The notes under the pieces are model-generated. The model saw nothing but the letters and a program-made list of their open reading frames with translations, had not been told where the DNA came from and made no database searches. Position numbers and translations under genes: made by a program. From Promethearchaeia archaeon (GTDB taxonomy: Archaea; Asgardarchaeota; Lokiarchaeia; Sigyniarchaeales; SOKP01): a stretch of DNA of 51,296 nt. Of the stretch, positions 14,986 through 45,003 are shown piece after piece (position 1 is the stretch's first letter; every line of letters starts with the position of its first letter). The stretch covers positions 1 to 51,296 of the forward strand of contig JAHQWJ010000025.1 of NCBI GenBank assembly GCA_029856125.1, written 5' to 3'.

Positions 14986-16899
14986 ATTTCGCTAGATTTT
15001 GCTTTAAAAGATTTCTATAGGAAACGTGGTACGACCTTCTCATATACAATGATGATCGTTTTAGTTATAGCGTTCACTGTATTTTTAATTAATTTCACTT
15101 CATCGATAGGTTTTAACAGTTTTATAACGTACGATTATGAAAATTCATTCTATTTTTCAGGCGGAATTAGCATTGTTTATATTGATTTCACTACGTTAGT
15201 GGTCATACTTATGTTAATCTTAGCTTTCGTAGTCGTCATTATCGTTACCATTACTTTGGTTATAACCAAAAAACGGGATATTGCGATAATGAAGGCATTA
15301 GGTTCAATCCCACAGAAATTATATGGTTTCTATTTAACAGAAGTTTACGTGGTTTTTCTTATTGGTTTTGTCATTGGGGCTTTAATAGGGTTTATCTCAT
15401 ATGTAATTTTCTTCTTTATAGCTTCAATTTTAGGAGTCATAGCGACCTTTCAAGTTGATGTTTTCTATACTCCTATTCTGTTTATATCGTGTTTCGTTGG
15501 GATTTATATATTTCCTGGAGTCGTGTTAAGGAAACTAGGAACACAAAACACTATCAAATTGTTTTCAAGAGATATTCCTTACAACTACGACGCTTCAAAA
15601 AAATTATCTGCAATTCCAAAGTGGTTAAGTTTAATAGGGTATAATTTTAAGATATCAGTCCTAAATACTCTTAGAAGGAAGGGAGAATTTAAGAGATATT
15701 TAATTGTATTTACAATTATTTCTCTAATAATTTTTACTTTAGGGTTAGGAAGTACTGTTCTAAAGAATTCTTCTCAAGAATGGATTAAAAAGTCGCAAGG
15801 AACAAATATAGTTGCAATTGGTCACAAAGACATCCTTCAAAACTACACTAAAATGTATGATATGTTCTCCAATCCAGATATTCTCATAACTCAAGAAGAC
15901 ATCGACTTTCTTAACCCAGATTACCTATTTAATCTCTCTAAAGTTGAAGAATTAACTAATTATACCGAAATTGAAAAAATAGACCAACGATTACTCAATT
16001 TTTTTAACGTTACTGAGCTAGACGGATACCATCATTTCGAAGATGGAGGTTCTTTGGCAATTGGTCAAGATAGACAAGCAGTTATTCCTATTATAGGTAT
16101 TAATGCGAGCGAAATTATACAAGATTTTGAGATTGAAGGTGAATACTTTGATTCAGAAGATTCAGTCTATATGATGATAGGGGACGGATTAAGTTACAAT
16201 CTCTTTGATTACCCATTAGATCAAAGTATGCGAATTGAAGAATTAGGAACAGGTCATCCATTTCACATTTCTGCGGTTGTTATAGATAGTTTTTATAGTG
16301 GTTTTGCGGGATATGTAGACTTAGGTGTTATGCAAGGAGATCTGAATTTTAATTCGAATGAGATAAATCTTTTATTACTTAAAGTACAATCTAGTGAGTA
16401 TAACAACATAATTGGGGAAATTGAGTTGATTATTCAAGGGAACCTAGGAGAAAACTTTAGTTTTGTCAATTTAAATCAAACTTTTGAGAACAACTATTCT
16501 TATCTTGAAATCCTCACTTTCTATCCTTCGCTCCTTATTATTATGATGGCAATAATATCGATTTTCGCTCTGTATAACTATCAAAAAGGCAATGTTTTAG
16601 AAAAGGCGAAAGACTTTCTGATTATGAGAGCTGTTGGGGCTAAATATAAGTCAATTAAGAAGATTCTCTTTTTAGAAGCTTTTTACATGATAATACCGTC
16701 CTTGCTTCTAAGTATGGGGGTTGGAATGATGATAAACTCTTTAGTATTATTCGAACGCGTTTATTTACCCAGTATATCGTTACCCATTATCATCATAGCG
16801 TTATTATTTATAGCTTTCTTAGCTTTTAATTATATAAGTTTATTTCCGATTCTTTCAAAGATAAAAAAATTTAGTATCAAAGATTTCGATATATTTTAG
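14986..16899 (+). CDS. FtsX/MacB-type ABC permease; probable ATT start, first ATG at 15049
   Basis: KRDIAIMKALG and FLIMRAVGA repeats; typical N-terminus ISLDFALKDFYRKR lies in frame upstream of the ATG; GGTG 8 nt before ATT. Confidence 0.82.
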   Translation: MSLDFALKDFYRKRGTTFSYTMMIVLVIAFTVFLINFTSSIGFNSFITYDYENSFYFSGGISIVYIDFTTLVVILMLILAFVVVIIVTITLVITKKRDIAIMKALGSIPQKLYGFYLTEVYVVFLIGFVIGALIGFISYVIFFFIASILGVIATFQVDVFYTPILFISCFVGIYIFPGVVLRKLGTQNTIKLFSRDIPYNYDASKKLSAIPKWLSLIGYNFKISVLNTLRRKGEFKRYLIVFTIISLIIFTLGLGSTVLKNSSQEWIKKSQGTNIVAIGHKDILQNYTKMYDMFSNPDILITQEDIDFLNPDYLFNLSKVEELTNYTEIEKIDQRLLNFFNVTELDGYHHFEDGGSLAIGQDRQAVIPIIGINASEIIQDFEIEGEYFDSEDSVYMMIGDGLSYNLFDYPLDQSMRIEELGTGHPFHISAVVIDSFYSGFAGYVDLGVMQGDLNFNSNEINLLLLKVQSSEYNNIIGEIELIIQGNLGENFSFVNLNQTFENNYSYLEILTFYPSLLIIMMAIISIFALYNYQKGNVLEKAKDFLIMRAVGAKYKSIKKILFLEAFYMIIPSLLLSMGVGMMINSLVLFERVYLPSISLPIIIIALLFIAFLAFNYISLFPILSKIKKFSIKDFDIF

Positions 16900-16993
16900 A
16901 TAATTTTGTTATCGGAAAGAAAAATATTAAAAAAGTGAAATCGATGAAATATATATGAACTTATTTTTTCAAAATCTATTCAATCACTAAGAT

Positions 16994-18355
16994 ATGGGAA
17001 TGACAGAAGAAGAAAACTTACTGAGGAAAATCCAAGATTTACAATCTGAATTAGATAAAAAAGAGATTCAAATTAATACATACTTAGATAAAATTGATGG
17101 TCACGAAGTAGATCTCATGAAATTCGAACAAATGTTCGATGAGAAAGCTCCAAAGAGTAAAATAAAAAAAGCTAAGGAAGATAAACTTAATATTGAAATA
17201 AACGTAAAAGATCGAGAAATTCGCGAATTAAAGGACCGAATGGGCTTTTTAAGAAAAGAAAAAATAGACTTGCAAAAGAAATACGAGCTTGAGTGTAAAA
17301 AGAATGAGGAAACTTCCGTTATTAGCGTAGAAGAAATTAGAGAGAAAGAGAAAGCACCTTTAAACGTATTACTGCAGGAGTTACAAGATAAGATTAACAA
17401 ACAAGAATCAATGATCAGAAGGTTAAAAAGTGGAGAAATAGGAATAAAAAGTAAAGATAACGGAAGCGACGAATATAACGAAATGTTAAAAGAAAAAGAT
17501 AATAAAATTGAAATGCTCACCGATCAACTTGCTGCACTCGACGAACAAATTGCTGAACTTAATGAAAACTTAAGTAAACGCCCTCCCAATATAGAATTAG
17601 ATAAACCTTCGAATAGAGATATCTCAAAGGCTCTCTTAGAAGAACTCCAAAATAACCTAACTAAAGTAAAAAGACATAATAACGAGTTAAAAAAGAAATT
17701 AGGAAAATATGAAAAAAAAGGTAAAAGTAAAAAAGGATCGGAAGAGAATAGTCAGATACTAGAATTGCAAAATATAATATCTCAATTAACTGGCGAGTTA
17801 GAACATAAGAACAAAATAATTGAAGAAAATACGATATCTAGCATTCACCGAGAAAGCGAATCGGATGCTGGCTCACTACATTCCGTAGTAGAAGAATTAA
17901 AAAGTAAGTTAAGTAAAGCTAAATCAGAAATAGCAAATTTTCAACTAGCTCAAGAACACAGTTTTAAAAGTCTTTCTCCAAGTGAGACTGAAGGAAAATT
18001 GAAAATTCAAAGAGAAATGGCGAGTTTTCTGCAAAAACAATTGGCAGAAGCAAACAACGCGCTAAAAACAAAAGAGGAAGAAATAACAACAATAAAAACT
18101 GAAGCTATAGGGATTAAAAGAAAATATGAACAATTAGATCATCTTATAAAGTCAAAAGATCAACAAATTAATGATTTAAATGCTGATATAGAAGCGCTTA
18201 AAATGCAAATCCAAACTCAAAATACTCCAGCGCAATCCATCCACCCTGATGTTAAATTACGACTCAATGAACTCCAGAGTTTAGTAGACGATCTTAGTAA
18301 ACAAAATATACAGCAAAGGTTAGAAATCTCTCAATTAAGAAAGAGCAAGAAATAA
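16994..18355 (+). CDS. Long coiled-coil protein of unknown function
   Basis: Heptad-rich E/K/Q/L sequence over almost the whole length; 2 nt upstream of rnz. Confidence 0.75.
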   Translation: MGMTEEENLLRKIQDLQSELDKKEIQINTYLDKIDGHEVDLMKFEQMFDEKAPKSKIKKAKEDKLNIEINVKDREIRELKDRMGFLRKEKIDLQKKYELECKKNEETSVISVEEIREKEKAPLNVLLQELQDKINKQESMIRRLKSGEIGIKSKDNGSDEYNEMLKEKDNKIEMLTDQLAALDEQIAELNENLSKRPPNIELDKPSNRDISKALLEELQNNLTKVKRHNNELKKKLGKYEKKGKSKKGSEENSQILELQNIISQLTGELEHKNKIIEENTISSIHRESESDAGSLHSVVEELKSKLSKAKSEIANFQLAQEHSFKSLSPSETEGKLKIQREMASFLQKQLAEANNALKTKEEEITTIKTEAIGIKRKYEQLDHLIKSKDQQINDLNADIEALKMQIQTQNTPAQSIHPDVKLRLNELQSLVDDLSKQNIQQRLEISQLRKSKK

Positions 18356-18357
18356 AT

Positions 18358-19341
18358 ATGGAACTCATCATCTTAGGTTCCTCCGCTGCTATACCCGTGC
18401 GTGAAAGAAACCTCTCATCAACTGCTCTTAAGTATAAAAATGAAATCTTGCTATTTGATTGTGGGGAGGACCTTCAAAGAAGCCTAGTTGAAGCCGGTTT
18501 GAAATTCAACAAACCCTTAAAAATATTAATATCACACTTTCATGGAGACCACATTATTGGTCTTCCTGGCCTATTATTTAGATTCGGGTTAAATCAGAGA
18601 ACCGCTCCTGTTACAATTTATGGGCCTGTGAACCTTTTCCTTTACTTATTTGTTCATAGGAAAGTGCTCGGTCTTAAACCTCATTATCCCATAACTGTAA
18701 TAGAAATAGATGATAAGCAAAAGCAATTAATAATATATGAAGGCTTGGACTCTGAATTACCGAATAGAAAATTGAATATAAAGGAAAATACGATATTTGA
18801 TGATGAAAAATATACTCTTAAATATACTTTAGTTGACCATTCAGTTTTAGCTTTCGCATATTCATTCACAGAAAAAAAACGAAGAGGTAAATTTAACCCT
18901 GAAAAAGTTAAAGAATTCGGAATTCCTGAAAGTAGTCTCTGGAAAAAACTACAAGAAGGAGAATGTATTGATTATGAAGGTAAATTAATTGATCCGATTA
19001 AGGAAAACATTGTAGGCCCAAAAAGACAGGGACGAAAAGTGACTTACTCTGGAGATACAGCCCCTTGTGAAAATTTAATTAAATTAGGGAAAGATTCAGA
19101 TGTTTTAATACATGAAGCTACTTTTTCTAAGGAGTTATCTGATATGGCAATTGAAAAAAAGCACTCCACTGCTACTGACGCTGCAACTGATGCAAAGAAA
19201 ATGGGAGCCAAGCAGTTGATATTAACACACATATCCTCCCGCTATAGAGATGATAGTTTACTGAACTTGCTGGAAGAAGCTAAGGAAATTTTTCCTAATA
19301 CGTTAATCGCTGAAGATTTGATGAGAGTTGAATTAAAATAA
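18358..19341 (+). CDS. rnz: Ribonuclease Z
   Basis: LGSSAAIP, FDCGE, SHFHGDH, flexible arm, YSGDT, HEATF, HST and LTHISSRY motifs. Confidence 0.95.
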   Translation: MELIILGSSAAIPVRERNLSSTALKYKNEILLFDCGEDLQRSLVEAGLKFNKPLKILISHFHGDHIIGLPGLLFRFGLNQRTAPVTIYGPVNLFLYLFVHRKVLGLKPHYPITVIEIDDKQKQLIIYEGLDSELPNRKLNIKENTIFDDEKYTLKYTLVDHSVLAFAYSFTEKKRRGKFNPEKVKEFGIPESSLWKKLQEGECIDYEGKLIDPIKENIVGPKRQGRKVTYSGDTAPCENLIKLGKDSDVLIHEATFSKELSDMAIEKKHSTATDAATDAKKMGAKQLILTHISSRYRDDSLLNLLEEAKEIFPNTLIAEDLMRVELK

Positions 19342-19376
19342 GATTTCTAATAAAGAGAAGATAAAAAAATTTTAGT

Positions 19377-19583
19377 TTAGCCTCCCGCTATATGGGGCAA
19401 TATAGTTATGGACGAATCCTTGTCGATAACATCTCCTTCACTTGCTTTTTTGCCATTGAGAATTATCCCAAAGTATTTTCCTTCTAAATTTAGCTCTTTG
19501 AGTAAATCGCCAACTGTCATTTCTCGTTCGGGAGTAATTGTTTCAATAATTCCAGTTTCTAAAAGATCTGCTATTTGTCGAAT
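19377..19583 (-). CDS. MoaD/ThiS/SAMP-like ubiquitin-fold protein with C-terminal GG; missed by the ORF track, probable ATT start
   Basis: (I)RQIADLLETGIIETITPEREMTVGDLLKELNLEGKYFGIILNGKKASEGDVIDKDSSITILPHIAGG*. Confidence 0.85.
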   Translation of the reverse strand: MRQIADLLETGIIETITPEREMTVGDLLKELNLEGKYFGIILNGKKASEGDVIDKDSSITILPHIAGG

Positions 19584-19762
19584 TATAATAACCTTTGTAA
19601 TAAATTTACTAGTAGTATAAGTAAAGCCAACTACCTATATAAAATTAATTCAAGAAATAAATAAGGTTTAGAATTTCTTACTGGAATCTAAATCATTTTC
19701 TCTGAAACAATATCTTTACATAAATGTTAAATATGATAGTTGAAATTTTATTAATGTAAAAT

Positions 19763-20269
19763 TTGTTCTTTTGGCGAAATCAAAAGAATATTACTAAAAA
19801 AGAGGTAATAATTATTACGGCATCAAATGAGGTGTCAATTTCAAAATGGACTTCTGACGAGTTCAAATTTGATAAAACTATCTTTATTGCTTTAGCTAAT
19901 CCATTTTTATTTGTTGCTTGCTTTGTTACACTACATCTTACAGATATCTTTCAGATACAAGAATTGTCATTTATACTTATACCCTCTTATATTCTCATTT
20001 TATATCTGATTTACAAGATTTCCAATATAAAAATCATTGCACAAAATAGAAATCTAAAAAAGTTAAAGGAACTGATAACTGTCGATTATGAAACCTGTAA
20101 ATTTTGTGGTAAGCAATTGTCTATAAAGGAATTTTACAATGCTAATAAAAAAGTAGATTTACAAAAAATATCTGATATTTGGAATAACGATTTTTACGGA
20201 TTATTGTGTTGTAAATGTTATGAGAACAGTCCTTCTAAATTCTGGATAAAATTCAAAGCAATTAAATAA
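19763..20269 (+). CDS. Two-TM membrane protein with a C-terminal Zn-finger-like domain
   Basis: Two hydrophobic helices, then CKFC...CCKC; start uncertain. Confidence 0.6.
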   Translation: MFFWRNQKNITKKEVIIITASNEVSISKWTSDEFKFDKTIFIALANPFLFVACFVTLHLTDIFQIQELSFILIPSYILILYLIYKISNIKIIAQNRNLKKLKELITVDYETCKFCGKQLSIKEFYNANKKVDLQKISDIWNNDFYGLLCCKCYENSPSKFWIKFKAIK

Positions 20270-20440
20270 CGAAGAATTTCATAATACCAAAACGGTCTCA
20301 ATTTGTTGTTTGCGTCGAAATTTTTGGTTTTCCATTATAAAGAATTCTGATTTTTTTTTATTATGGTAAAAACCATTATTTTTATGTGTCTTTTAATTTC
20401 ATTGCATAAAATTGACTTTTATTTAAAGGGTTGATCTCAG

Positions 20441-22093
20441 ATTCTTCAAGAGGATTCATTTAGCGATTATGGCGAGTATCTTGATAAGGTTAGAGATTTA
20501 TTAATGGTAATTAATACACTTGAAGACGAAAAAGAAAAGACTGATCAAAGTCAAAAAATTATTAATGATTCTATTACAACAGCTAATGAGATTTCTGAGT
20601 CTGGTGAACATTTTGAAGCTGGAGAATTTCTTATCTCAATAGCGGAACTATTAGAAGGACTCATTTCTTTTCATTCTGTTAAGCTATATAAGCTAACTAT
20701 AAAATACTGGAATAACGAAGTAAACTCATTTAAATTGCAAGGGAAACTTCATGAAGTAGCCGAGATTTTCTTACGAATTGCTGATCTCTATGAAAAATTA
20801 GAGGAACCTAAATCTTATAGAAAGAATATCCTAGAAAGCATAGGTTATCTAAAGCGTGAAAGTAAATTGCTAGAAGAATTTAACGAAACCAGAAAACTCG
20901 CTCAAAACTACGAAAACATCGCTGGACTATTCCTAAAAGTGGCAAATTATAAAAACGCAATAAAATATTATCTAAACGTAGTTGAAATCGCAAAAGAATA
21001 CCAATACTTTGATTTGCTCTCGTATTCTTACCAGCAAATATCAGATTGTTATCAAGAACTAGACGAAATTGAAAAATCTAACAGTATAATCTATGATGGT
21101 ATCGAGTTTTTCTCCACACTTTTTCAATCTTTTGAAGAAAAAAACGAGAATCTTGCGATATCACAGATAGCTAAAGTGTTAAAATCTCTTTACCACCTTA
21201 TCGATGATGAAGAACAGTTTATTGTCTATTCTAAAAAGGAAGCTGGTGCTTACATAAATTTAGCGGAAAGATTAGAAAAATGCGAAGAAAACTACTATAA
21301 AATTGCTCGATACTACCGAGGGGCTGCTTTATGCTACCAAGGGATTAATAACAACCTCATAGAATCTGCTTCTTGTTTTGTATTAGCAGGCAATTATAAC
21401 GAACGGATCAAGGAATTCAATGAAGCCGCTACAAATTTTTTTAACGCCGCCGTAATATTTAAAGAATTGAATAATTTAGAGATGACTTACAAGCATTATG
21501 TAAAAGCTGGAGATAATTATTGGAAAGTAAAGAACGTAAAAGATTCAACTGATAGCTATTTAAATGCCTACGATATTGCAGTTGAAGGTAAACTGGAATA
21601 CAATAAGTTTGGCATTTTCAATCAAATTGTTAGGGGTTTAAACATTATAGCAAAAGAAGGGTTAAAAAACAAACAATTCTACACAGCAGCTACCTTAATT
21701 ATGGAAAGTATCAAATTTTATCAACAATTGGACACGGCGAAGGAATTTCTCGTAAATGAAATGTTAAAAAATGTCTACAGATATTATTATAAAGCTGCTA
21801 ATTTAAAAAAAATTGGGAACTCTCATATAGTGCAATCTTACACTATGGCTGCTATTTCTTCTATTCTCAACGGAAACATCGATAAAGCACTCAAAATTCT
21901 CTCTGAAATTGAGATGGAAGGAACTACTGTGAATAAATACAAAGAATTAGTCCAAATTATTATTGATTGGGTGTCTGATGGAAGAGAGGTTGAATTTGAA
22001 AACTTTCCATATGATATAAAAAGAATAATAATAGGTTCTGAAGAAATTGGCTATCTTTTAAGGTTCTTTAAAGGATATAGATTATATTACTAA
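20441..22093 (+). CDS. TPR/alpha-SNAP-like helical repeat protein; probable ATT start at 20441, first ATG at 20504
   Basis: About 20-aa repeats: ARYYRGAALCY, ASCFVLAGNY, ATNFFNAAVIF, KHYVKAGDNY, DSYLNAYDI. Confidence 0.7.
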   Translation: MLQEDSFSDYGEYLDKVRDLLMVINTLEDEKEKTDQSQKIINDSITTANEISESGEHFEAGEFLISIAELLEGLISFHSVKLYKLTIKYWNNEVNSFKLQGKLHEVAEIFLRIADLYEKLEEPKSYRKNILESIGYLKRESKLLEEFNETRKLAQNYENIAGLFLKVANYKNAIKYYLNVVEIAKEYQYFDLLSYSYQQISDCYQELDEIEKSNSIIYDGIEFFSTLFQSFEEKNENLAISQIAKVLKSLYHLIDDEEQFIVYSKKEAGAYINLAERLEKCEENYYKIARYYRGAALCYQGINNNLIESASCFVLAGNYNERIKEFNEAATNFFNAAVIFKELNNLEMTYKHYVKAGDNYWKVKNVKDSTDSYLNAYDIAVEGKLEYNKFGIFNQIVRGLNIIAKEGLKNKQFYTAATLIMESIKFYQQLDTAKEFLVNEMLKNVYRYYYKAANLKKIGNSHIVQSYTMAAISSILNGNIDKALKILSEIEMEGTTVNKYKELVQIIIDWVSDGREVEFENFPYDIKRIIIGSEEIGYLLRFFKGYRLYY

Positions 22094-34607: not shown

Positions 34608-34608
34608 A

Positions 34609-35136
34609 CTAGTACATTTCTTGCTTACTGAATAAAAGTGCAAATGTACCAAAAAATATTCCGGTTATCGCTGCACTTAAACTAAATGCAATTAGCAACA
34701 TAATTGGATTTAATACTACAATGCCATAATATAACAAAGTACCGGGATTAATAAATATCAGTACTCCTAAAGCCGAAGAACTGATCAAACAAGTTATCAT
34801 CCATCCACCGAAACTTGCTCCTTTGCTTCCCCCAGTACGCCCTGCTATGAGAGCGGCGATAAATGGCGTTACGATAAGTCCGATGGTTTGAATCAAAGAT
34901 GCATCAAACATCCCTAAAGAAATTTGTGTGTATAACGTGAATATGGAGCTACTTGGCACCATAGTTATAGGTCCGAAGAATATTAACAATAATATTAATG
35001 GATCGCTAGTAATATCGCTAAATAGTGGATTTAAACCCCCACTAATAGTTTCGGATATTATTACAAATAAGAAGTTCAAACCAACGTATGCGAGTAAGCT
35101 AAATCCAAGAGCTTTTCCAAGTCCCAACTTAATCAA
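34609..35136 (-). CDS. Membrane protein of unknown function
   Basis: 4-5 TM helices; AALIAGRTG motif. Confidence 0.7.
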   Translation of the reverse strand: MIKLGLGKALGFSLLAYVGLNFLFVIISETISGGLNPLFSDITSDPLILLLIFFGPITMVPSSSIFTLYTQISLGMFDASLIQTIGLIVTPFIAALIAGRTGGSKGASFGGWMITCLISSSALGVLIFINPGTLLYYGIVVLNPIMLLIAFSLSAAITGIFFGTFALLFSKQEMY

Positions 35137-35358
35137 CCTTTTTATAAATTTGTGTTTACTATTTAATTAATTAATACTATGTATAAAATAGAAAATAAAA
35201 GCTATTTAAATTTAATTGCCTTAAAAATTAAATATCATATTTTACTAAATCTAATAAAAAACAAATCGAATTAATAATTTCATCAAAAATATACATTTCT
35301 ATTTTACCCTTGCTCCAAAATTTAAATATTTAAAATTTTTATTTGTAATGATGTTGAG

Positions 35359-36402: not shown

Positions 36403-36555
36403 TTTCATATGTCTCCGTTCCACTGAATGTAATTATTTAATTACCAAGATTTTTATTTCTAAATTTTCATTACATATACGGGTATTTTATAATTTTATAT
36501 TAAGGGTTATAAGGAATTTATTTATCTATCTTAATAATTTAAAGTTTGATTTATT

Positions 36556-38490
36556 GTGGTTAATAACGAATTACGAGCTATTTTAAAATCCATTGGAGAG
36601 CATTCCAAGGGAAGAGATTTAACCATTAAATTGAATTCTCACGTTTTTTTTGATATACTAGAAGCTAATAATGATGTTTTTACCAAATTTAAAGAAAAAA
36701 TTAACAAAGATTGGAAGGAATTCAAACAAAAAAATCAGAATCGCGTAATTAAAAAAACCTATAGTTCTTTCTTCTTTCAATATTTCGACAAACTTCTTAA
36801 ATTTTATTTGCAAAACTTCTGCGGGTATGATACTAATTCTTTAAAATTAATAGAAAAAGAGAAGATATCTGATGATAATTTATTTTTAGAGTACAGTTAT
36901 AATCTATCTCCTGAAGAAAAGGAAGTTTTTACTGAATTTGCTGAGGATTTTAAAGATAATGTTGATGGCATAACCTCTCCATCCGCCTCCCCATCAGGCT
37001 ATCTCTATATGGTAATTAGCATACTTGGAGTAATTCTGAGAAAACTATTAAATGAAAAGTTTTACATCGTTTTAGACGGTGTTGTATTAAAGAATGGTGA
37101 TAGTAAAAACGCTCTGAATTTCTTAATCGTTGTCAAAAATAGCAAAGATGCATTATTTGATAATTACTATTACATGTATTTATATTATTTTTTAAAATAT
37201 TTTAAAGAGGTTCCTGAACAATATTTTGATAAATTATTAGCTGGGAGGGAAAAGGTATATCAGATAGCTCTAGACGAATATTCTAATGCTAAAGAGAATC
37301 TCGTTGATCTAATGTATTATTTTTATAAGAAATGTAACCTGTTAGGAAATTTTTCTCCGCTGTTAGATTTCTTAAACTTCGTATGCTCAAGAGTAGAAGA
37401 TTCTGTATTTCCAAAACTAGATATTATTAGAAAAGAATTCTTGCGGAATTTCGAGTACACAGATGAAAAAAAGAACGCTCTTCTGCGAATATTTGATTTT
37501 ATAGACAAAAAATCTACGTTGTATTCCACTTTTCAAGCAAACAACTTACCCTCACAAAACTCTCAATTTAATCTATTTCTCCTTTATACAAAATATTATT
37601 TTGTAAGTGGAAGTTTAGAGGCTCTAGAAGTAAGCGATCTCTTATTTTTGCCCGATGAATTCAAAACAAAATTAAATGATTTTAATGCTAAAGCCGAAAC
37701 TGTAATTAATGCTAACACTATTAACGAAGTCCAAGAATTATTAGATATACTCTCGATTTTGACAAATATAGAGAACCCAGATCTCTTTTTTAAGAAAATT
37801 TTTAATAAAGAAATCTCCCAACTTAATTACGATTTCTTTAAAGCGTTTTTGCTTAGTTTGAATTCGAGTATATCGCGTTTGATTGAGATTGAAAATAAAA
37901 CATTAGAAGAAAATCTGAGTAACGAGCCATTAAATTTTAAAATCGTAGTGGATCATGTTTGTCGAATGCTTTACACATTAATAGACAAAATCTTTCTCAG
38001 AAGACTTCCAAGTCAGGCGTCCAAAAACTTTATCGACCCAAGAAGTAGATATGTGGGAAAAAATATCGCGTTGAGGGTATTAGAGTTATTTATATTTAGC
38101 GATTTGAACGTTTCAGATGATGTTTGGCCTGATTACATTATATCCATGAATAAAGACGCTTTACTTAAGGATTTAGAAAATTTCGAAGTTGAAATTCCTG
38201 AAAAACATTTCTATCGATACGAAGATATTGCCCGATTTGTTGTTACCTTTAATTTTCAGTCGTCAAAAGAACAGATACTATTCGAGGAGTGGTTAATCAC
38301 AGGACTTATAACTCCAATTATCAATTTTATATCGAAAATTCGCGATTTAATAAAAAATGATGAAAATAAAACGGAGATATCTAAGATTTTAAGAAATTAT
38401 TTTGTTGGTGACACTAAACACCAAGAAAATTTAGAAGATATCGATTATGTTTGCCAGCAACTCGCAGATTTTTGGGAAGATGCTGATTAA
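36556..38490 (+). CDS. Hypothetical helical protein (644 aa)
   Basis: Long ORF with host-like codon usage; no recognised motif. Confidence 0.7.
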   Translation: MVNNELRAILKSIGEHSKGRDLTIKLNSHVFFDILEANNDVFTKFKEKINKDWKEFKQKNQNRVIKKTYSSFFFQYFDKLLKFYLQNFCGYDTNSLKLIEKEKISDDNLFLEYSYNLSPEEKEVFTEFAEDFKDNVDGITSPSASPSGYLYMVISILGVILRKLLNEKFYIVLDGVVLKNGDSKNALNFLIVVKNSKDALFDNYYYMYLYYFLKYFKEVPEQYFDKLLAGREKVYQIALDEYSNAKENLVDLMYYFYKKCNLLGNFSPLLDFLNFVCSRVEDSVFPKLDIIRKEFLRNFEYTDEKKNALLRIFDFIDKKSTLYSTFQANNLPSQNSQFNLFLLYTKYYFVSGSLEALEVSDLLFLPDEFKTKLNDFNAKAETVINANTINEVQELLDILSILTNIENPDLFFKKIFNKEISQLNYDFFKAFLLSLNSSISRLIEIENKTLEENLSNEPLNFKIVVDHVCRMLYTLIDKIFLRRLPSQASKNFIDPRSRYVGKNIALRVLELFIFSDLNVSDDVWPDYIISMNKDALLKDLENFEVEIPEKHFYRYEDIARFVVTFNFQSSKEQILFEEWLITGLITPIINFISKIRDLIKNDENKTEISKILRNYFVGDTKHQENLEDIDYVCQQLADFWEDAD

Positions 38491-38502
38491 CTCTATTAAC
38501 TT

Positions 38503-39006: not shown

Positions 39007-39149
39007 TTTTAATCACAGATTCTAAGAATTTGAAAAATACTAGATTTTTTACGATATTATTACTAGAGATTTAATATAATCATTAATATCTAAAATGTGT
39101 TAATAGATTAAAGATTAGCTTTTGAACTCAAGAGATGTTTTAGGGAATT

Positions 39150-41150
39150 ATGCCAAAAAAGAACGAAATCATAGTATTTGATGCGAATTTTTTTATTTGT
39201 ATGAACTCGATTAGAGCTAAAAATGTGCTTGGAAACCTTGATACCGTCGCAACGGATTTAGGTTTTGAGTATCACATGAGTGCCGTTGTTTTTGACGAAA
39301 TTAAAGCTCCCCATACGTTCCGTCAAAAATTCCAAAAAATCATACATGTTTCAGAAATAACCATTTCTGAAATCGAAACTATTAAGAATGAATTAAGTAA
39401 GCAAGGTATTCGGTTTCCGGCTCAAGATCCCGATTTATCTTTATTATCGCTCTCTCAAAAATTACTTACTAACGATAAAGGTCTCAAAATAAGCTTAGTA
39501 TCAGATGACTTCAAACTCGTGAAGAATGCTAATTTATTTTTTCACGGAAAGATCAATACTTTATCGCTCTCCAGCTTTTTACTAAAAATTCACAGGACGA
39601 TTTCCAATAAGCAGTTACGGAATTATTTTAAAACTATTTGGAAAAAAAGTTTAAACTACACTTTATCGTACATGATAGAGCGTTCGAAAATTTATCCTGC
39701 CGAAGAAAAAATAACATGGTTAATAGAAAAGGCAATAAGTGTAACTCAAGACTCTATAATAACTCAGGACGCACATTATGTTGACAGTCAAAAAGGTCCC
39801 GTAAAATTTGAAATAGGAGCAAGCAAATACGAAGAGGAAATTGCTATTTGCGAAAAATATATTGAAAACCATAAGCTAGCAAATAGTGAGGAAGAGTTAA
39901 TAGCGTCGATATTAAATTTCCTTGAAAACTTAAAAATTTCTCGCGAATACATAAAGCAAGCTCGTAAGGCAATTGAAAAGCACGATTCTAAGAACGCAGT
40001 AAAATTTTTAAAGAAGGGAAATGGTTTTTTGATTTCACTATTGCAGATTGCTTCAGGTCAACTAACTAATTTAAAAGATTACGATATCGTGGAAAAGTTA
40101 ATCTGTAGCGAGATTTCAAAGATGGAATTCCTAAGAGCCTTTATATTAATTTCTTTAGGGAGGGTAAATAATGCTATAGACTCTTTAGAGAGAGCTGCTT
40201 TATTTTCTACAATAATTCATAATCACCAAACATGTTTAACTTTAAACTATGTAAAAGCGTTAATCCTGTTATTTCATGGGCTATACAACAACGCGATTAT
40301 GGCCTATAATTTTACAGAAGAGCTTGCTGACATATATAACGACGAAAGACTTAAACTTAAATGCGCGATTGGAAAATCTATTGCTATCTATATTAAAGGA
40401 GATGATAGCGAGACTGCTATGGCGATTATGGATGAAATTGCCAACATGGACATGGAAAAGAATTTCCTAGATGCTATTATCGTTTTTAGTGAACTGGGCG
40501 ATTATTTCTTAGCTTTAGGGCACTCACAACTGGCTGCAAATCTTTACAACGAGGCGTTAGAAATAAGTATTGATTATAAATTGAAAATTAGAAGCGATAT
40601 ATTAATCGAAAAATTAAAGCGAGCGTATATTGCTACTGTTCTCAATGGGTATTCAACTGAAGATATTATGGTTGATAAATTAGATGTTCTACTTAATAAG
40701 GCTTATTCGGTCAAAGATGTAGAGAAATATAATGAGCAAATTAAGAAAATCTCTAGTTTTAACATTCTGTTCTACACGCCATTTCCTTACATTTCTGGGA
40801 AAAAAAAGATTATCCCTTATATCAAACTTCCCAAAGAGCTCCAAGAAGATTACTTAGAAGTAGTTCATTTTGAGAAGGTAAAATACGCTAAAGCCTCTAA
40901 ATATCTTTTCATCGTCTCTCATTATGAATTGGGTTTGTTAGGCATTATTGTAAAAACTGATGAAAATGTTATTGGTATCGCTGAGAATTACACGTTGAAA
41001 TTAAAACCAACTTCAAAAGTTAAAATATACAACCCAACCGCAGAATTGAGAGATACTTATTTAATTAGAGCGATTATCGAGGTTGTAACTAAAAATGAAT
41101 GCGAAATTATATATTCGTTGCCATCCTTCTTTAAGGCACTAAATATATAA
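39150..41150 (+). CDS. PIN-domain nuclease fused to a TPR-like helical region
   Basis: VFDANFF, VFDE, DPDLSLL and LVSDDFKL acidic PIN residues; TPR-like ELGDYFLALGHSQLAANLYNEALEI. Confidence 0.7.
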   Translation: MPKKNEIIVFDANFFICMNSIRAKNVLGNLDTVATDLGFEYHMSAVVFDEIKAPHTFRQKFQKIIHVSEITISEIETIKNELSKQGIRFPAQDPDLSLLSLSQKLLTNDKGLKISLVSDDFKLVKNANLFFHGKINTLSLSSFLLKIHRTISNKQLRNYFKTIWKKSLNYTLSYMIERSKIYPAEEKITWLIEKAISVTQDSIITQDAHYVDSQKGPVKFEIGASKYEEEIAICEKYIENHKLANSEEELIASILNFLENLKISREYIKQARKAIEKHDSKNAVKFLKKGNGFLISLLQIASGQLTNLKDYDIVEKLICSEISKMEFLRAFILISLGRVNNAIDSLERAALFSTIIHNHQTCLTLNYVKALILLFHGLYNNAIMAYNFTEELADIYNDERLKLKCAIGKSIAIYIKGDDSETAMAIMDEIANMDMEKNFLDAIIVFSELGDYFLALGHSQLAANLYNEALEISIDYKLKIRSDILIEKLKRAYIATVLNGYSTEDIMVDKLDVLLNKAYSVKDVEKYNEQIKKISSFNILFYTPFPYISGKKKIIPYIKLPKELQEDYLEVVHFEKVKYAKASKYLFIVSHYELGLLGIIVKTDENVIGIAENYTLKLKPTSKVKIYNPTAELRDTYLIRAIIEVVTKNECEIIYSLPSFFKALNI

Positions 41151-41151
41151 C

Positions 41152-41424
41152 TTAAAATTTTCTTGAATCTTTACTTCGTTGACTAACTTGATGACTATGA
41201 ACAGCGCAACTTATACAATAATATTTTTTAGTACTTGGGGATTGAATAATCGTCCCAGTTTTCTTTAGTTCAGCGTACATTCTGCCATCAACCAAAGAAG
41301 TCCGCCTTGTTACTGCTTTAGCCTTACTTCGGGGAACCCTACGGCCACATTTACTGCATTGAACAGTCTTATAACTTCCCTTACTTGAGCCGGTTTTACC
41401 GCCACTTCTTCTCTTCTTAGGAAT
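41152..41424 (-). CDS. rps26e: Ribosomal protein eS26; missed by the ORF track, ATT start
   Basis: (I)PKKRRSGGKTGSSKGSYKTVQCSKCGRRVPRSKAK...YYCISCAVHSHQVSQRSKDSRKF*. Confidence 0.95.
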   Translation of the reverse strand: MPKKRRSGGKTGSSKGSYKTVQCSKCGRRVPRSKAKAVTRRTSLVDGRMYAELKKTGTIIQSPSTKKYYCISCAVHSHQVSQRSKDSRKF

Positions 41425-41560
41425 ACAAAATCAGCTTTTTTCTATAAGTAATTATGTTCTATTTCTAAGATTTTGAATAAGGCAAACCTTAAAAATTTTT
41501 TCTTCCCTTAGGAGCTTAGCAAGTATTAGTTCTATTAAGGTTTTCTTTCAAAAAAAGTAG

Positions 41561-42244
41561 TTACTTTTTATCGGGCGCTTCAATTTTACTTATTTCTTTA
41601 AAAGAAAATATTAATCTTTGTGCTATTGTCAAAATTAGTAGCCCTGTAAAGATTATAGTGAATATCGGGAAAAAGAGTTCGAAAGGAGTTCCATAAAATA
41701 GGTTTGTCAAGAAATAGATCCAAAATTCAGCGATAAAAGCGAACCATAAAATGATTAACCTTTCAGCTCTTTCCATAAAACCTACGCCTTTCATCTCAAT
41801 TCCTTCATTTTCAGCTCTGGAACGAATATAAGAAATCATGATAAATAAGAATAGTATCGTATATCCAACTATGTAATTAAAATATCCGCCTATTATTAAC
41901 CCTAAGACTATAACGGCATCCGAAAGGCGATCTAAGTTTGAATCTAAAAAAGCTCCTGAAATGGAAATTTTATTAGTCATCCGGGCTATTTCTCCATCGA
42001 ACACATCAAAAGCACCCGCCCAGAACATCAAAAATGGGACGATCCAAGCTATTGGAAAGGGAAAATGTAACCCTCCTAATGAGAGTAAAATAGCAACAGC
42101 TATTGAACAGAAAAAGCCACAAAATGAGAGTATATTTGGTGTAAATCCCCATTTAACTAACGCTTTAGCCGGGAGCTCGACAAATATTTCTAAAATTCTT
42201 CTCTGATTGCTCCTTTTAGTTGTAGCTTGCTCGATTTTGCTCAA
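41561..42244 (-). CDS. CDP-alcohol phosphatidyltransferase (archaetidylinositol-phosphate synthase-like)
   Basis: TPN, DVFDGEIAR...GAFLDSNLDRLSD, SYIRSRAE and GFMERAER motifs. Confidence 0.9.
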   Translation of the reverse strand: MSKIEQATTKRSNQRRILEIFVELPAKALVKWGFTPNILSFCGFFCSIAVAILLSLGGLHFPFPIAWIVPFLMFWAGAFDVFDGEIARMTNKISISGAFLDSNLDRLSDAVIVLGLIIGGYFNYIVGYTILFLFIMISYIRSRAENEGIEMKGVGFMERAERLIILWFAFIAEFWIYFLTNLFYGTPFELFFPIFTIIFTGLLILTIAQRLIFSFKEISKIEAPDKK

Positions 42245-42308
42245 TATTTAATCCTAATTATGTTTTGACAATAATACAATTTAAAAGTACTCTAAAATAA
42301 AAAATTTA

Positions 42309-42905
42309 TCATATCAATAATTGGAGATTTATTTTAATTAATCGGATCGTCGATGAAGCCAAATAAGCTCGAGAACCCAGACTTATGTTTTCCAAATTTA
42401 ACTTCTTTAATTCTTTATTGTTTAAGAGATCACCACTTTGATCACCTATAATAAATAGCAAATTATTTGAATTCAGTTTCTCAAAAACATCTTTAAAGTC
42501 TTTGCCATTCTCGTTTAACACGTAAATCTTATATTTTTTTTCAACGAAATTCTTAATAGCGTCAAAAATATCTAATTTTGAGTATTTTATTGAGTCCAAT
42601 GGCGTTTCAGGAAGCTTTTCTCCTTTTTTCGTTTTTTTAATAAATTCTACAAAGAAATCCGTTAAAAGAATTTCGTTTTTTGGGAAAGACTCATCATTGA
42701 ACAGATCAGCGTCAAAGACAAATGTTCCATACTTATCTAGAAAAACCCATATTTGAATATTTTCTTCAAGTTCCGTACCAATTGTAAGCGCTGATAAAAT
42801 ACATCTTGAGATTACATCAAGTCTTCCAGATGATCCTGGGATGTCTTTAATAGTATATCTGCTAATATCTACTGTTCTCGAATTTATAAAAAAGATTAAG
42901 TTCAC
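42309..42905 (-). CDS. trmY: tRNA (pseudouridine54-N1)-methyltransferase, SPOUT fold
   Basis: GSSGRLDVISRC, LNENG, FIIGDQ and ISLG motifs. Confidence 0.8.
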   Translation of the reverse strand: MNLIFFINSRTVDISRYTIKDIPGSSGRLDVISRCILSALTIGTELEENIQIWVFLDKYGTFVFDADLFNDESFPKNEILLTDFFVEFIKKTKKGEKLPETPLDSIKYSKLDIFDAIKNFVEKKYKIYVLNENGKDFKDVFEKLNSNNLLFIIGDQSGDLLNNKELKKLNLENISLGSRAYLASSTIRLIKINLQLLI

Positions 42906-43018
42906 GAATTTAAAATAAAACCATCTAATTTAAATGAGTATTAATAAGTTATGAAGTGAAAATTAAAAAAAAAGGTTGGTTTTATTTCTTTTTTTTTTCT
43001 TTTTAGAACTAATCCAGA

Positions 43019-43327
43019 CTAGCTTAATTTCCTTTTCTTCAAACGAGTAATCAAATAAAAAGTTCCAGTTAGTACAGTTATAGATAGAACAATACCGATA
43101 ATCCCTGCAACATAATCGTTAGTAATCCAACTTAAGAAAGGAATCCACGGAGAAAATAGATTTTCAAGCCATTCTTCTCCATTATAATCTATTAACACTC
43201 TTTCTAGCCCATCAGGATTGTCAGAAAGAAATCCTATTGTAAACCCTACTGCTATAACAAACATGAGAGCGGCAACTATGGTTAGAATTGTGATGAGAGC
43301 CCATTTATACTTTTTTATTGCACCCAT
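43019..43327 (-). CDS. PDGLE-domain ECF accessory protein (NikN-like)
   Basis: SDNPDGLE between two TM helices; directly follows cbiM. Confidence 0.85.
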   Translation of the reverse strand: MGAIKKYKWALITILTIVAALMFVIAVGFTIGFLSDNPDGLERVLIDYNGEEWLENLFSPWIPFLSWITNDYVAGIIGIVLSITVLTGTFYLITRLKKRKLS

Positions 43328-43329
43328 TT

Positions 43330-44001
43330 TTATTTCACCTTCAGTATTGATTCAGTTGTAATAAAATCGGGTTTCGTTTTATAAATATAAAACACGATAA
43401 GAGCAGAGATTATTGCTTCACCAATTCCTATTAGGATATGCCAAAAAACCATAGCCGGAACGACAATTTCAATTGGAATCGTCCCACTAATACCTATTTC
43501 AATACCACATATGAAAGAGGCTAGAACAATAGCGATATAAGATCCTATAGCAGTTGCAATCGTGACTTTTAATTCTTTCTTCAGCGATGTATTATTCAGA
43601 AGTCTTACGAATAACATAACTAAATAGAAACCTACAATACCACCAATTATTCCCATATTGAAAGCATTTGCTCCTAACGCAGTAATGCCCCCATCTCCAA
43701 AAAGACTTTGAATAACTAAAATTAAAAATAATACTATAACAGACGCCCAAGGACCAAGGATAATCGCTACTAGCGTACCTCCAACCAAATGACCTGAAGT
43801 CCCTCCTGGAACGGGATAATTAACAAATTGAAACGCAAAGATAATTGCAGCCAATACTCCTATGTAGGGGATCATCTTTTCAGAATCTTCTTTTTCAAAC
43901 ATTTTACCCATCCTAAAATACCCTAAAACCATAATCGCAATTGTAACAATCCAGAGCACGATAGTTGTTATAGGGTCTAATAATCCGTCAGGTATATGCA
44001 T
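43330..44001 (-). CDS. cbiM: ECF Co/Ni transporter substrate component
   Basis: MHIPDG N-terminus; GTSGHLVGG, FGDGGITALGAN and HILIGIGE motifs. Confidence 0.93.
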   Translation of the reverse strand: MHIPDGLLDPITTIVLWIVTIAIMVLGYFRMGKMFEKEDSEKMIPYIGVLAAIIFAFQFVNYPVPGGTSGHLVGGTLVAIILGPWASVIVLFLILVIQSLFGDGGITALGANAFNMGIIGGIVGFYLVMLFVRLLNNTSLKKELKVTIATAIGSYIAIVLASFICGIEIGISGTIPIEIVVPAMVFWHILIGIGEAIISALIVFYIYKTKPDFITTESILKVK

Positions 44002-44199
44002 TTTTTATTTACCAATATTTTATTATCGATTAATTTTTTTGTCATGAATAATATTTTATCATAATTTAGTATTATTTAAAAACGATATGATAATTTTATA
44101 AATTAATATGAAGTATCAACTTGGAGCTATTCGAGTTTCATATAAGGAATAGTCTAATGAGCTTCGCTAAATAATAGAAATTTAAGGAGATAAAATAAA

Positions 44200-45003
44200 T
44201 TGGACATAGAATTACCCTTCAAACACGAAGATGAAAAAAATTTCTTAAATAAGATTCATCCATTAATTCGATTTATTCTCCCGTTTATCTTAGTCGTACC
44301 TTTTCTTATTGTAAGCGATGTTTATTTAGTAATTACGGTTATTATTTTTGTTATATTTTTCAATTTGGTGTTTCGTTTACATCTATTAAAGATTTTTTCA
44401 AAACTGAAAGGGTTAATTCCCTTCATACTTCTTATTACAATTTTTGTTCCTTTCTACATTGGAAACACCGTATTCTTTCAATTGAATCTTGGAGTTCCAC
44501 TCAATATTTATGTAGAAGGATTATCTTATGCCTTAATTCTATTTTTTCGAATTGTAGGCGCGGCGTTTGTATTCCTAACATTTTTTACTTCTTTAACTTA
44601 CTCGGAATTTATTGAAGCGCTAACCAAACTTCGAGCAATTCCTTCATTTTTTGTAGGTAGTATAATTATCATGCTTCATTACATTCCAATTCTCGCAAGA
44701 TCTAACAGAAAAGTACTGGAAGCACAAGATTTAAGAGGAAAAAACTTTACATCGTATTGGCAAAGGCTTAAAACTCACGGATTCATAATGGGGAAGAATG
44801 TAGTACACAATATGGAAAGAAGCGAAAAATTGTACGAGAGTTTAAAAATGAGGGGTTTTTCTGGTAAAATTACTTTTTCTTCTAAGAAAATAAAATTAGC
44901 GGATATACTGATAGTAATATTGTTTGTGTTTATTGTGATTTCTTTCGTCTATTTCATCAATCTAGAACGGATATATGTGGGGGTTTTTCAATTATTAGTC
45001 TAA
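44200..45003 (+). CDS. cbiQ: ECF transporter T component
   Basis: LNKIHP, AQDLRG and SLKMRGF motifs. Confidence 0.88.
   Translation: MDIELPFKHEDEKNFLNKIHPLIRFILPFILVVPFLIVSDVYLVITVIIFVIFFNLVFRLHLLKIFSKLKGLIPFILLITIFVPFYIGNTVFFQLNLGVPLNIYVEGLSYALILFFRIVGAAFVFLTFFTSLTYSEFIEALTKLRAIPSFFVGSIIIMLHYIPILARSNRKVLEAQDLRGKNFTSYWQRLKTHGFIMGKNVVHNMERSEKLYESLKMRGFSGKITFSSKKIKLADILIVILFVFIVISFVYFINLERIYVGVFQLLV

What the first reader, a model, noticed from the sequence alone, without database searches (positions are those of the whole stretch)
14986..44996. Recurrent ATT initiation across the window suggests lineage-wide relaxed start-codon use
Five genes have their expected N-terminus beginning at ATT: the FtsX permease (14986, GGTG upstream), the ThiS-like protein (19583, AAGGT upstream), the SNAP-like protein (20441, GGGTTGA upstream), eS26 (41424) and cbiO (44994, GGGGGT upstream). 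TTG and GTG starts are also common. About 5 of some 43 genes is far above the rarity of AUU starts in model prokaryotes and bears on how start-codon fidelity (aIF1/eIF1) evolved.
Basis: partly seen in the sequence, partly recalled or inferred. Interest (0 to 1): 0.7.

Follow-up and report, generated by a model that had tools for sequence, protein, structure and literature searches.

The report
ATT/ATA/ATC start codons, Loki archaeon
In this Loki-type Asgard archaeon and its genus, about 3% of genes (five in this window, plus ribosomal proteins eS26 and uS4 and the start-codon proofreading factor aIF1) really begin at ATT, ATA or ATC behind a ribosome-binding site, so public gene models cut off their front ends.

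Summary

In 22-30 genomes of the same genus, the codon aligned to each ATT is ATT, ATA, ATC, ATG, TTG or GTG:
- It sits behind a Shine-Dalgarno-like motif, often 0-2 codons after an in-frame stop.
- Protein-type conservation (third positions most variable) begins exactly there.
- The SNAP-like gene never has ATG (ATT/ATA/ATC only).
- cbiO keeps ATT in 20 of 22 genomes.

Five of 38 conserved window genes use ATT, but the window is enriched. Genome-wide the rate is about 3% (7-8 of 241 orthologue pairs; 58 strong-SD candidates, 11 of 20 backed by Pfam N-termini).

The initiator tRNA is ordinary (CAU). aIF1 itself starts at ATT/ATC in 36 of 41 genomes of this family. Only 1 of 50 Loki-class genomes has an in-frame ATG for aIF1, against 25 of 40 in other Asgard families. 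This suggests an infC-like feedback loop, which is inferred and not shown.

Public gene calls hold the truncated proteins. I found no paper describing this. The scan has already reported the same habit in other Loki genomes.

The parts
14986..16899 (+). FtsX-type ABC permease gene starting at ATT 14986 (SD GGTG 14974-14977, 8 nt spacer). It lies 48 nt after the stop of the ABC ATPase gene (14195-14938).
   Evidence: In 30 genus orthologues the aligned start is ATT in 16, ATA in 7 and ATG in 7. Each has GGTG/GAGG/GGAG about 8 nt upstream, and six have an in-frame stop 0-1 codon upstream. Divergence by codon position after the start is 0.24/0.14/0.50, against a flat 0.55/0.56/0.55 upstream. The public gene call is the truncated 616-aa form.
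19377..19583 (-). ThiS/MoaD-like ubiquitin-fold protein (ends in GG) starting at ATT 19583-19581 (SD AAGGT 19595-19591).
   Evidence: Pfam ThiS match. The only canonical codon is an ATG 21 codons downstream, which would give 47 aa. In 28 orthologues the aligned start is ATA in 15, TTG in 8, ATT in 4 and ATG in 1, behind AGGT(G). One orthologue has a stop directly upstream. The public call is 47 aa.
20441..22093 (+). SNAP/TPR-like protein starting at ATT 20441. It has a conserved upstream GGGTTGATC (20428-20436) containing the in-frame TGA.
   Evidence: In 28 orthologues the start is ATT in 14, ATA in 7 and ATC in 7, never ATG. In 20 of the 28 a stop lies directly before it. The downstream Met of the window copy is not conserved. 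Coding-type divergence 0.24/0.16/0.45 begins at the ATH (ATT, ATA or ATC). The public call is the truncated 529-aa form.
41152..41424 (-). Ribosomal protein eS26 starting at ATT 41424-41422. An in-frame TGA lies at 41433-41431 and GCTGAT at 41435-41430.
   Evidence: Pfam S26e model positions 1-93 align to residues 1-89 counted from the ATT. In the genus the start is ATT in 12 genomes, ATG in 8 and TTG in 1. Other families have ATG or GTG at the same MPKKR position. The first canonical codon is 43 codons downstream, past the first CxxC.
44994..45743 (+). cbiO/ECF-type ABC ATPase starting at ATT 44994 (GGGGGT 44979-44984). It overlaps the end of cbiQ (stop 45001-45003) by 10 nt.
   Evidence: ATT is conserved at this codon in 20 of 22 orthologues. 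In six of them the in-frame stop is one codon upstream. The window's GTG at 45009 is GTT/GTA/GTC in most relatives.

Best explanation
AUU, AUA and AUC (written ATH in DNA terms) are genuine, Shine-Dalgarno-guided translation start codons in this genus of Loki-type Asgard archaea (Promethearchaeota). They serve roughly 3% of genes, five of them in this window.

Shown here:
- Each gene's protein-coding conservation begins at the ATH codon.
- The ATH codon is interchangeable in evolution with ATG/TTG/GTG at the same position.
- An SD-like element (a match to AGGAGGTGATCC, the complement of the 16S 3' end) sits 6-8 nt upstream.
- Often no other start is possible.

Inferred:
- The ordinary initiator tRNA-Met(CAU), the only initiator-type tRNA found, pairs with AUH despite a third-position mismatch, so these proteins begin with Met.
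- The lineage tolerates this because aIF1-dependent rejection of near-cognate codons is set low.
- aIF1's own gene starts at AUU/AUC throughout this family, and at AUA or UUG in most of the rest of the Loki class. This fits a negative feedback loop like bacterial infC: less aIF1 gives more AUU initiation, which gives more aIF1. Such a loop would keep stringency at a level where AUH starts work.
- Genes that never revert to ATG (SNAP-like, cbiO, aIF1) probably keep a weak start by selection.
- Genes that flip between ATH and ATG/TTG (eS26, uS4, FtsX, ThiS) suggest that the cost of ATH is small here.
For: Five window genes:
- Window-wide alignments of 38 genes are.
- The Pfam S26e model starts at the ATT.

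Genome-wide:
- SD enrichment before ATH against other codons: OR 3.4, p = 5e-13.
- A register-aware test gives an excess of 26-58 genes.
- 7-8 of 241 orthologue pairs need a non-canonical start in this genome, and about 7 in G017.
- There are 58 strong-SD candidates. In 11 of the 20 tested, Pfam domain position 1 lies next to the ATH and upstream of the first canonical codon. These are a Ras GTPase, ApbA, uS4, TetR, TatD, Pyr_redox, DeoC, an esterase, PALP, GFO/IDH and GNAT.

Other evidence:
- uS4 has ATC/ATA in this genus where 40 of the other 42 genomes sampled in the class have ATG or TTG at MGDPRR; one genome of a sister genus also has ATA.
- The initiator tRNA is canonical: CAU, A1:U72 and three G-C pairs.
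- aIF1 has no canonical start. ATT lies 3 codons after a stop, and the protein aligns from its N-terminus with M. jannaschii aIF1, 4MO0.
- ATT/ATC at aIF1 is unambiguous in 36 of 41 family genomes. Only 1 of 50 Loki-class genomes has an in-frame ATG, against 25 of 40 in other Asgard families.
- Literature: Sulfolobus aIF1 rejects AUU in vitro, and infC (AUU) and eIF1 (poor context) are autoregulated (PMC4705826).
Against: - There is no direct protein or ribosome-profiling evidence, so the N-terminal residue (Met or Ile) is unknown.
- SD motifs of the five window genes are only moderate (4-5 nt runs, 3 for cbiO).
- E. coli has the infC loop yet almost no other AUU starts, so the loop alone does not explain a 3% rate.
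- tRNA detection was incomplete (28 found), so an extra initiator cannot be excluded.
- The basic loop of aIF1 shows no obvious change compared with M. jannaschii.
- The 3% figure rests on one relative and on heuristic classification. The first versions of that test over-called, because AT-rich 5' UTRs are conserved.
Confidence: 0.85

Rival explanations
1. The real starts are the downstream ATG/GTG/TTG codons, and the conserved upstream stretches are 5' UTR or regulatory sequence.
For: AT-rich 5' UTRs, including SD and promoter elements, are visibly conserved between species of this genus. They produced false 'extensions' of 6-12 codons in my first genome-wide test.
Against: For the five genes the extension evolves like protein, with third positions 2-3 times more variable than first and second positions. 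The 30 nt upstream of the FtsX, ThiS and eS26 starts show no such periodicity. The downstream canonical codons are not conserved. eS26 would lose its first CxxC, the FtsX protein would begin inside its first membrane helix (my reading of the sequence, not a prediction run here), and ThiS would be 47 aa. In 11 other genes the Pfam domains start before the first canonical codon.
Confidence: 0.04
2. The ATT codons are sequencing or assembly errors, or the genes are decaying pseudogenes of a MAG.
For: The genome is a 153-contig metagenome bin with 6% contamination.
Against: The same ATH codons recur in 12-28 independently assembled genomes from different studies. The frames are intact, and purifying selection is evident.
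Confidence: 0.01
3. A dedicated second initiator tRNA (anticodon matching AUH), or editing or modification of the mRNA or tRNA, reads these codons, rather than near-cognate pairing by tRNAi(CAU).
For: Only 28 tRNA genes were detected in a genome that should have about 45. Asgard tRNA genes carry introns that hide them. ATT, ATA and ATC are all used, which a single mismatch-tolerant mechanism or an inosine/agmatidine-type anticodon could both explain.
Against: The one initiator-type tRNA found is fully canonical. No tRNA with initiator features and another anticodon appeared. The alternation with ATG/TTG/GTG at the same sites is what near-cognate initiation predicts.
Confidence: 0.07
4. ATH starts are tolerated rare accidents without any change of start-codon stringency. 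The window merely happens to hold five of them, and the aIF1 ATT start is unrelated.
For: The genome-wide rate (about 3%) is four times lower than in the window. uS4 and eS26 show ATH only in sub-clades. The scan reports occasional ATH starts in several unrelated archaeal groups.
Against: A 3% rate is far above what I recall for E. coli, where only infC and pcnB use AUU (my own knowledge; the scan note names the same two genes). Highly expressed ribosomal proteins carry ATH. The SNAP-like gene, cbiO and aIF1 hold ATH across the whole genus or family, which implies efficient use. aIF1 lacks an in-frame ATG in 49 of 50 Loki-class genomes, but in only 15 of 40 genomes of other Asgard families.
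Confidence: 0.15

Closest known systems
AUU start codons of E. coli infC (IF3) and pcnB
   Same: A near-cognate AUU behind an SD, read by the initiator tRNA. For infC, the gene of the factor that rejects such codons itself starts at AUU, which gives autoregulation (PMC4705826). Here aIF1, the archaeal functional counterpart, starts at ATT/ATC.
   Different: This is an archaeon, and aIF1 is unrelated in fold to IF3. About 3% of genes are affected rather than two or three, including ribosomal proteins. All three of AUU, AUA and AUC are used. Autoregulation is inferred only.
Eukaryotic eIF1 autoregulation through a poor start context
   Same: eIF1 is the homologue of aIF1, and its own mRNA has a weak initiation site that is sensed by eIF1 level (PMC4705826). 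Asgard archaea are the closest archaeal relatives of eukaryotes (PMC12993045, abstract).
   Different: In eukaryotes the weak feature is the Kozak context of an AUG in a scanning system. Here it is the codon itself, in an SD-guided system.
Mitochondrial genetic codes (NCBI tables 2, 4, 5), and table 11's list of rare alternative starts
   Same: ATT, ATA and ATC are accepted initiators. Table 11 formally lists them for prokaryotes.
   Different: There is no codon reassignment here. Internal ATH codons behave as Ile. As far as I know, the usual gene finders allow only ATG/GTG/TTG, and the public models of these genes are truncated.
Earlier reports of this scan on other Loki-type, Hel- and Hod-archaeal genomes
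   Same: The same phenomenon, including aIF1 and ribosomal proteins, at 1-3% of genes.
   Different: This is another genome and genus. This report adds the never-ATG SNAP-like gene, the codon-position test, and the sampling of aIF1 starts across the class and the phylum.

Membership tests
SD-led near-cognate (AUU/AUA/AUC) initiation, infC/pcnB type | No in-frame ATG/GTG/TTG between the upstream stop and the conserved N-terminus | tested here: met
   For eS26 the stop is 2 codons upstream. In many SNAP-like, FtsX and cbiO orthologues the stop is 0-1 codon upstream.
SD-led near-cognate (AUU/AUA/AUC) initiation, infC/pcnB type | Shine-Dalgarno element at functional spacing | tested here: met
   The 16S 3' end is GGATCACCTCCT. 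The SD consensus GGTGA(T) lies at -11..-6 in 1026 ATG starts. The five genes carry 3-5 nt matches in register, 6-8 nt from the ATT. Genome-wide enrichment is shown.
SD-led near-cognate (AUU/AUA/AUC) initiation, infC/pcnB type | Orthologues carry a canonical start at the homologous codon | tested here: met
   FtsX, ThiS, eS26 and uS4 alternate with ATG/TTG/GTG. The SNAP-like gene and cbiO show only ATH (ATT, ATA or ATC) within the genus.
SD-led near-cognate (AUU/AUA/AUC) initiation, infC/pcnB type | Decoded by initiator tRNA-Met, giving an N-terminal Met | not testable with these tools
   Only a canonical tRNAi(CAU) gene was found. There are no protein data.
Autoregulated fidelity factor (infC/eIF1 type loop) | The factor's own gene has a weak initiation site, conserved in the lineage | tested here: met
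   aIF1 starts at ATT/ATC in 36 of 41 family genomes, and at ATA or TTG in most of the rest of the class. An in-frame ATG is available in 1 of 50, against 25 of 40 in other Asgard families.
Autoregulated fidelity factor (infC/eIF1 type loop) | Factor synthesis rises when factor level falls | not testable with these tools
   This needs a reconstituted or in vivo assay.
Codon reassignment (ATA or ATT read as Met throughout) | Internal ATH codons occupy conserved Met positions | tested here: not met
   Internal Met codons of one genome align to ATG in 57-62% of cases and to each ATH codon in only 1-5%. By my judgement that is ordinary M/I exchange. ATH codons are abundant at Ile positions in all alignments.
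Leaderless initiation | Start codon at the mRNA 5' end, with no SD | tested here: inconclusive
   SD-like motifs precede all five starts, and cbiO and FtsX are internal to operons. Transcript 5' ends are unknown.

The most novel reading that the evidence does not exclude
Loki-class Asgard archaea run translation initiation at a deliberately low start-codon stringency. The level is set by a feedback loop in which aIF1 is made from its own AUU/AUA/UUG start. This would be an archaeal counterpart of the bacterial infC and eukaryotic eIF1 loops. As a result AUH codons have spread to about 3% of genes, including ribosomal proteins, and the same share of published Loki protein N-termini are wrong.
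Probability: 0.4. Interest if true: 0.8.

Novelty: new variant of a known kind. Interest (0 to 1): 0.66.

Why it matters
Textbook accounts allow archaea ATG, GTG and TTG (PMC4705826), and as far as I know the usual gene callers follow them. Here a whole genus of the archaea closest to eukaryotes uses ATT/ATA/ATC for about one gene in thirty. The public models of at least three of the five window genes (FtsX, ThiS-like, SNAP-like) lack their N-termini, and by the same logic so would those of the other ATH-start genes such as uS4 and several small GTPases.

That affects structure prediction, searches for eukaryotic signature proteins, and orthology calls in Asgard genomes.

Biologically, a fidelity factor (aIF1, the homologue of eIF1) made from a weak start codon would be a third, independent case of stringency homeostasis. 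It gives a concrete, testable handle on how start-codon selection was tuned before eukaryotes evolved scanning.

Tried and rejected
- A position-weight matrix of the 16 nt before ATG starts, and an SD-antiSD duplex-energy score, both compared by codon type, had no power. Only about 20-30% of ATG starts carry a clear SD, and coding sequence is richer in G.
- Counting trinucleotides downstream of every SD-like 5-mer was swamped by in-frame GGT-GAx inside genes.
- Using the BLAST HSP start against one relative over-called non-canonical starts. Antisense shadow ORFs and conserved AT-rich 5' UTRs align as 'protein'. I replaced this with a stricter block rule plus inspection.
- 'Codon aligned to the orthologue's confident ATG' gave about 60 usable starts per direction and mostly ±1-3 codon shifts. 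It measures turnover, not frequency.
- aragorn found only 17 tRNAs, and Rfam tRNA found 28, so the tRNA inventory is incomplete.
- I looked for an obvious change in the aIF1 basic loop against M. jannaschii aIF1 and saw none that I could interpret.
- aIF1A and aIF2-beta were not examined.
- No control genome outside the Asgard phylum could be put through the intrinsic SD test.
Full report
WHAT THE WINDOW IS

The window is contig C25 of a 3.69-Mb, 153-contig genome with about 33% G+C. Close relatives are metagenome bins titled Promethearchaeota or Promethearchaeia, 'Loki_b31' and the like. It is therefore a Loki-type Asgard archaeon. The 16S rRNA ends in GGATCACCTCCT. In 1026 ATG starts that lie within four codons of an in-frame stop, the consensus GGTGA(T) occupies positions -11 to -6. 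A Shine-Dalgarno (SD) mechanism is therefore in use. Below, ATH means ATT, ATA or ATC.

THE FIVE SITES

All five ATT codons are at the stated coordinates.

- eS26: the frame reads TGA TTT TGT ATT CCT AAG AAG AGA AGA, that is stop-F-C-I-P-K-K-R-R. The Pfam S26e model aligns from its position 1 to the ATT. The next canonical codon is 43 codons further on.
- FtsX: GGTG, 8 nt, then ATT, then ISLDFALKDFYRKRG. This is the conserved stretch before the first membrane helix. The first ATG lies inside that helix.
- ThiS-like: AAGGT, 7 nt, then ATT. The only ATG would leave 47 residues.
- SNAP-like: GGGTTGATC (which contains an in-frame TGA), then TCT CAG ATT.
- cbiO: GGGGGT, 9 nt, then ATT at 44994. This lies 10 nt before the stop of cbiQ, and a GTG sits five codons later.

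COMPARATIVE TEST

I searched each protein in up to 40 related genomes and read the codon aligned to the ATT.

- eS26: twelve genomes of the genus have ATT, eight have ATG and one has TTG. Other families have ATG or GTG. All are at the MPKKR position.
- FtsX: ATT in 16, ATA in 7 and ATG in 7 of 30. Each lies behind GGTG/GAGG/GGAG, and six have a stop 0-1 codon upstream.
- SNAP-like: ATT in 14, ATA in 7 and ATC in 7 of 28, never ATG. In 20 of the 28 a stop lies directly before the ATH. GGGTTGAT is conserved. The Met that a gene finder would choose in the window copy is L, V, T or Q elsewhere.
- ThiS-like: ATA in 15, TTG in 8, ATT in 4 and ATG in 1.
- cbiO: ATT in 20 of 22. Six have the stop one codon upstream. 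The window's GTG is GTT, GTA or GTC in most relatives.

Pairwise divergence by codon position in the 14-20 codons after the start is 0.24-0.28, 0.14-0.24 and 0.40-0.57. This is the signature of a translated sequence. The 30 nt before the start are flat at about 0.55 per position, except where they are the preceding gene or the conserved SD. The downstream-start rival is therefore rejected for all five genes. Sequencing error is excluded by recurrence in independent assemblies.

HOW COMMON IS IT?

I fetched the syntenic regions of seven relatives and aligned the N-termini of all 38 conserved window genes. In relatives, three further genes do: the G004 orthologue of the 36550 ORF, and the G011 orthologues of the 43022 and 34612 ORFs.

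Genome-wide I compared 241 orthologue pairs with 400 kb of species G017:
- 221 pairs have a canonical codon at the start of the conserved block.
- 13 are conserved UTRs with an aligned canonical pair just downstream.
- 7-8 need a non-canonical start. Examples are C123:9269 (ATT directly after a stop, first canonical codon 48 codons on), C96:1277, C138:13342 (ATA aligned to TTG) and a GcvT-like gene.

That is about 3%, and the G017 side gives the same figure. The window is thus about four-fold enriched. This is to be expected for a window that was flagged for this feature.

Two homology-free tests agree:
- ATH codons at least four codons upstream of the first canonical codon carry a strong SD 5-mer at 5-9 nt in 64 of 2470 cases, against 122 of 15614 for other codons (odds ratio 3.4, p = 5e-13). 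ATC, ATT and ATA rank first, second and seventh among codon types seen at least 100 times.
- A register-aware run-length score gives an excess of 58, 48 and 26 genes at run lengths of at least 4, 5 and 6.

Of 58 strong-SD candidates I scanned 20 against Pfam. In 11 the domain begins within a few residues of the ATH and well before the first canonical codon. These are a Ras-family GTPase whose P-loop would otherwise be lost, ApbA, ribosomal protein uS4 (ATC GGT GAT CCA, i.e. [M]GDPRR), TetR, TatD, a Pyr_redox flavoenzyme, DeoC, an esterase, a PALP enzyme, a GFO/IDH/MocA oxidoreductase and a GNAT.

uS4 was then followed through the class. It has ATC in this genome and five close relatives, ATA in one other species of the genus and one of a sister genus, and ATG or TTG in all 40 others. 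ATH is therefore a derived, recurrent state at the first codon of a universal ribosomal protein.

MECHANISM

The only initiator-type tRNA found has anticodon CAU, A1:U72 and three G-C pairs next to the anticodon loop. tRNA detection is incomplete, with 28 genes found.

Following a lead in earlier notes of this scan, I located aIF1 (Pfam SUI1) at C84:118611-118961. Its frame has no ATG, GTG or TTG until the last ten codons. It reads TGA AAA AAG AGT ATT AAA GAC GAC GAT ATT TGT, preceded by AAGGTTGTGA. From the ATT the protein aligns with M. jannaschii aIF1 (4MO0) from that protein's third residue.

Start codons of aIF1 in 50 Loki-class genomes:
- In the window's own family, 36 of 41 genomes have ATT or ATC 1-3 codons after a stop and nothing else available.
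- Two genera of that family have a possible GTG.
- In the other families of the class, the two genomes of genus g5 (family f2) and the two of family f7 appear to use ATA. The two of genus g2 (family f2) and two of the three genomes of family f6 have TTG.
- Only one genome (also family f6) has an in-frame ATG.

In 40 genomes of 20 other Asgard families an ATG is available in 25, only a GTG in 6, and no canonical codon in 9. The weak start of aIF1 is therefore a feature of the Loki class rather than of Asgard archaea in general.

Sulfolobus aIF1 rejects AUU in vitro. Bacterial infC (AUU) and eukaryotic eIF1 (poor context) are both autoregulated through their own weak starts (PMC4705826). By analogy I propose that aIF1 synthesis from AUU holds stringency at a level where AUH codons behind an SD initiate usefully. 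That would make ATG-to-ATH changes at other genes mild. This step is inference. The infC loop in E. coli does not lead to many AUU genes, so something more is needed, such as a different set-point or a difference in the ribosome or the factor.

Genes that hold ATH throughout the genus (SNAP-like, cbiO, aIF1) look selected for a weak or regulated start. cbiO and FtsX are second genes of transporter operons, where subunit ratios matter.

CONSEQUENCE FOR ANNOTATION

The exact truncated proteins are in the public collections from NCBI, JGI and ENA: SNAP-like from ATG 20504 (529 aa), FtsX from ATG 15049 (616 aa) and ThiS-like from ATG 19520 (47 aa).

NOVELTY

Five full-text searches found no paper describing ATT/ATA/ATC starts in Asgard archaea or an aIF1 non-AUG start. 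Two reviews I searched state or imply AUG/GUG/UUG for archaea (PMC4705826, PMC7531240). The kind of event, near-cognate initiation behind an SD, is known from infC and pcnB, so this is a new variant of a known kind.

The scan has reported the same habit before on other DNA. The notes are e1-5570855 and e1-5630182 (other Loki genomes, 1-3% of genes, aIF1 included), e1-1065736 (Helarchaeota-like nop5) and e1-5685835 (Hodarchaeales-type sucC).

LIMITS

- There are no protein or ribosome data.
- The 3% rate comes from one relative plus heuristics.
- No genome outside the Asgard phylum was put through the intrinsic test.
- aIF1A and aIF2-beta were not inspected.

Noticed in passing
genome contig C24, minus strand (reverse-strand offset 7411; outside the window), and its G017 orthologue at reverse-strand offset 395008 of my 400-kb join of G017:C11 (L117-L136): A 324-codon ORF begins directly after an in-frame TGA in both species. 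The nucleotides upstream are conserved and read ...Y-G-TGA-S-C-K-L-G. This looks like selenophosphate synthetase (SelD) with a selenocysteine codon in its G-U/C-x-C-K motif.
   Followed up: no
window 20426-20443 and loci L061-L088: The SNAP-like gene keeps an almost invariant AGGGTTGAT(C/T)T upstream element and never acquires ATG in 28 species, although one base change would create it. This suggests selection for a weak or regulated start, or an extra role for the motif.
   Followed up: partly
window 44994-45003: The cbiO ATT start overlaps the last 10 nt of cbiQ in another frame, an arrangement typical of translational coupling.
   Followed up: no
loci L140-L142 (G004) and L137-L139 (G011); orthologues of window ORFs 36550-38490, 43022-43354 and 34612-35169: Genes that start canonically in the window (GTG, ATG, TTG) have only an ATH codon available in single relatives. 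Start-codon identity therefore turns over between species.
   Followed up: partly
loci L305, L308, L331, L333 (Asgard family f12) and L296, L297 (f9), L311 (f14), L320 (f19), L321 (f20): aIF1 genes of several non-Loki Asgard lineages also lack any in-frame ATG/GTG/TTG before the zinc knuckle. In f12 a Leu codon aligns with the GTG start of sister genomes, so a CTG start is possible.
   Followed up: no
genome contig C84: 111342-116234 (outside the window): Three tRNA-Leu(TAG) genes, two of them matching the Rfam tRNA model with identical scores and the same aragorn fold, lie within 5 kb and 2.4 kb upstream of aIF1.
   Followed up: no
window 15049, 19520, 20504: Public protein collections (NCBI, JGI/IMG, ENA) hold exactly the N-terminally truncated products that start at these downstream ATGs.
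   Followed up: yes
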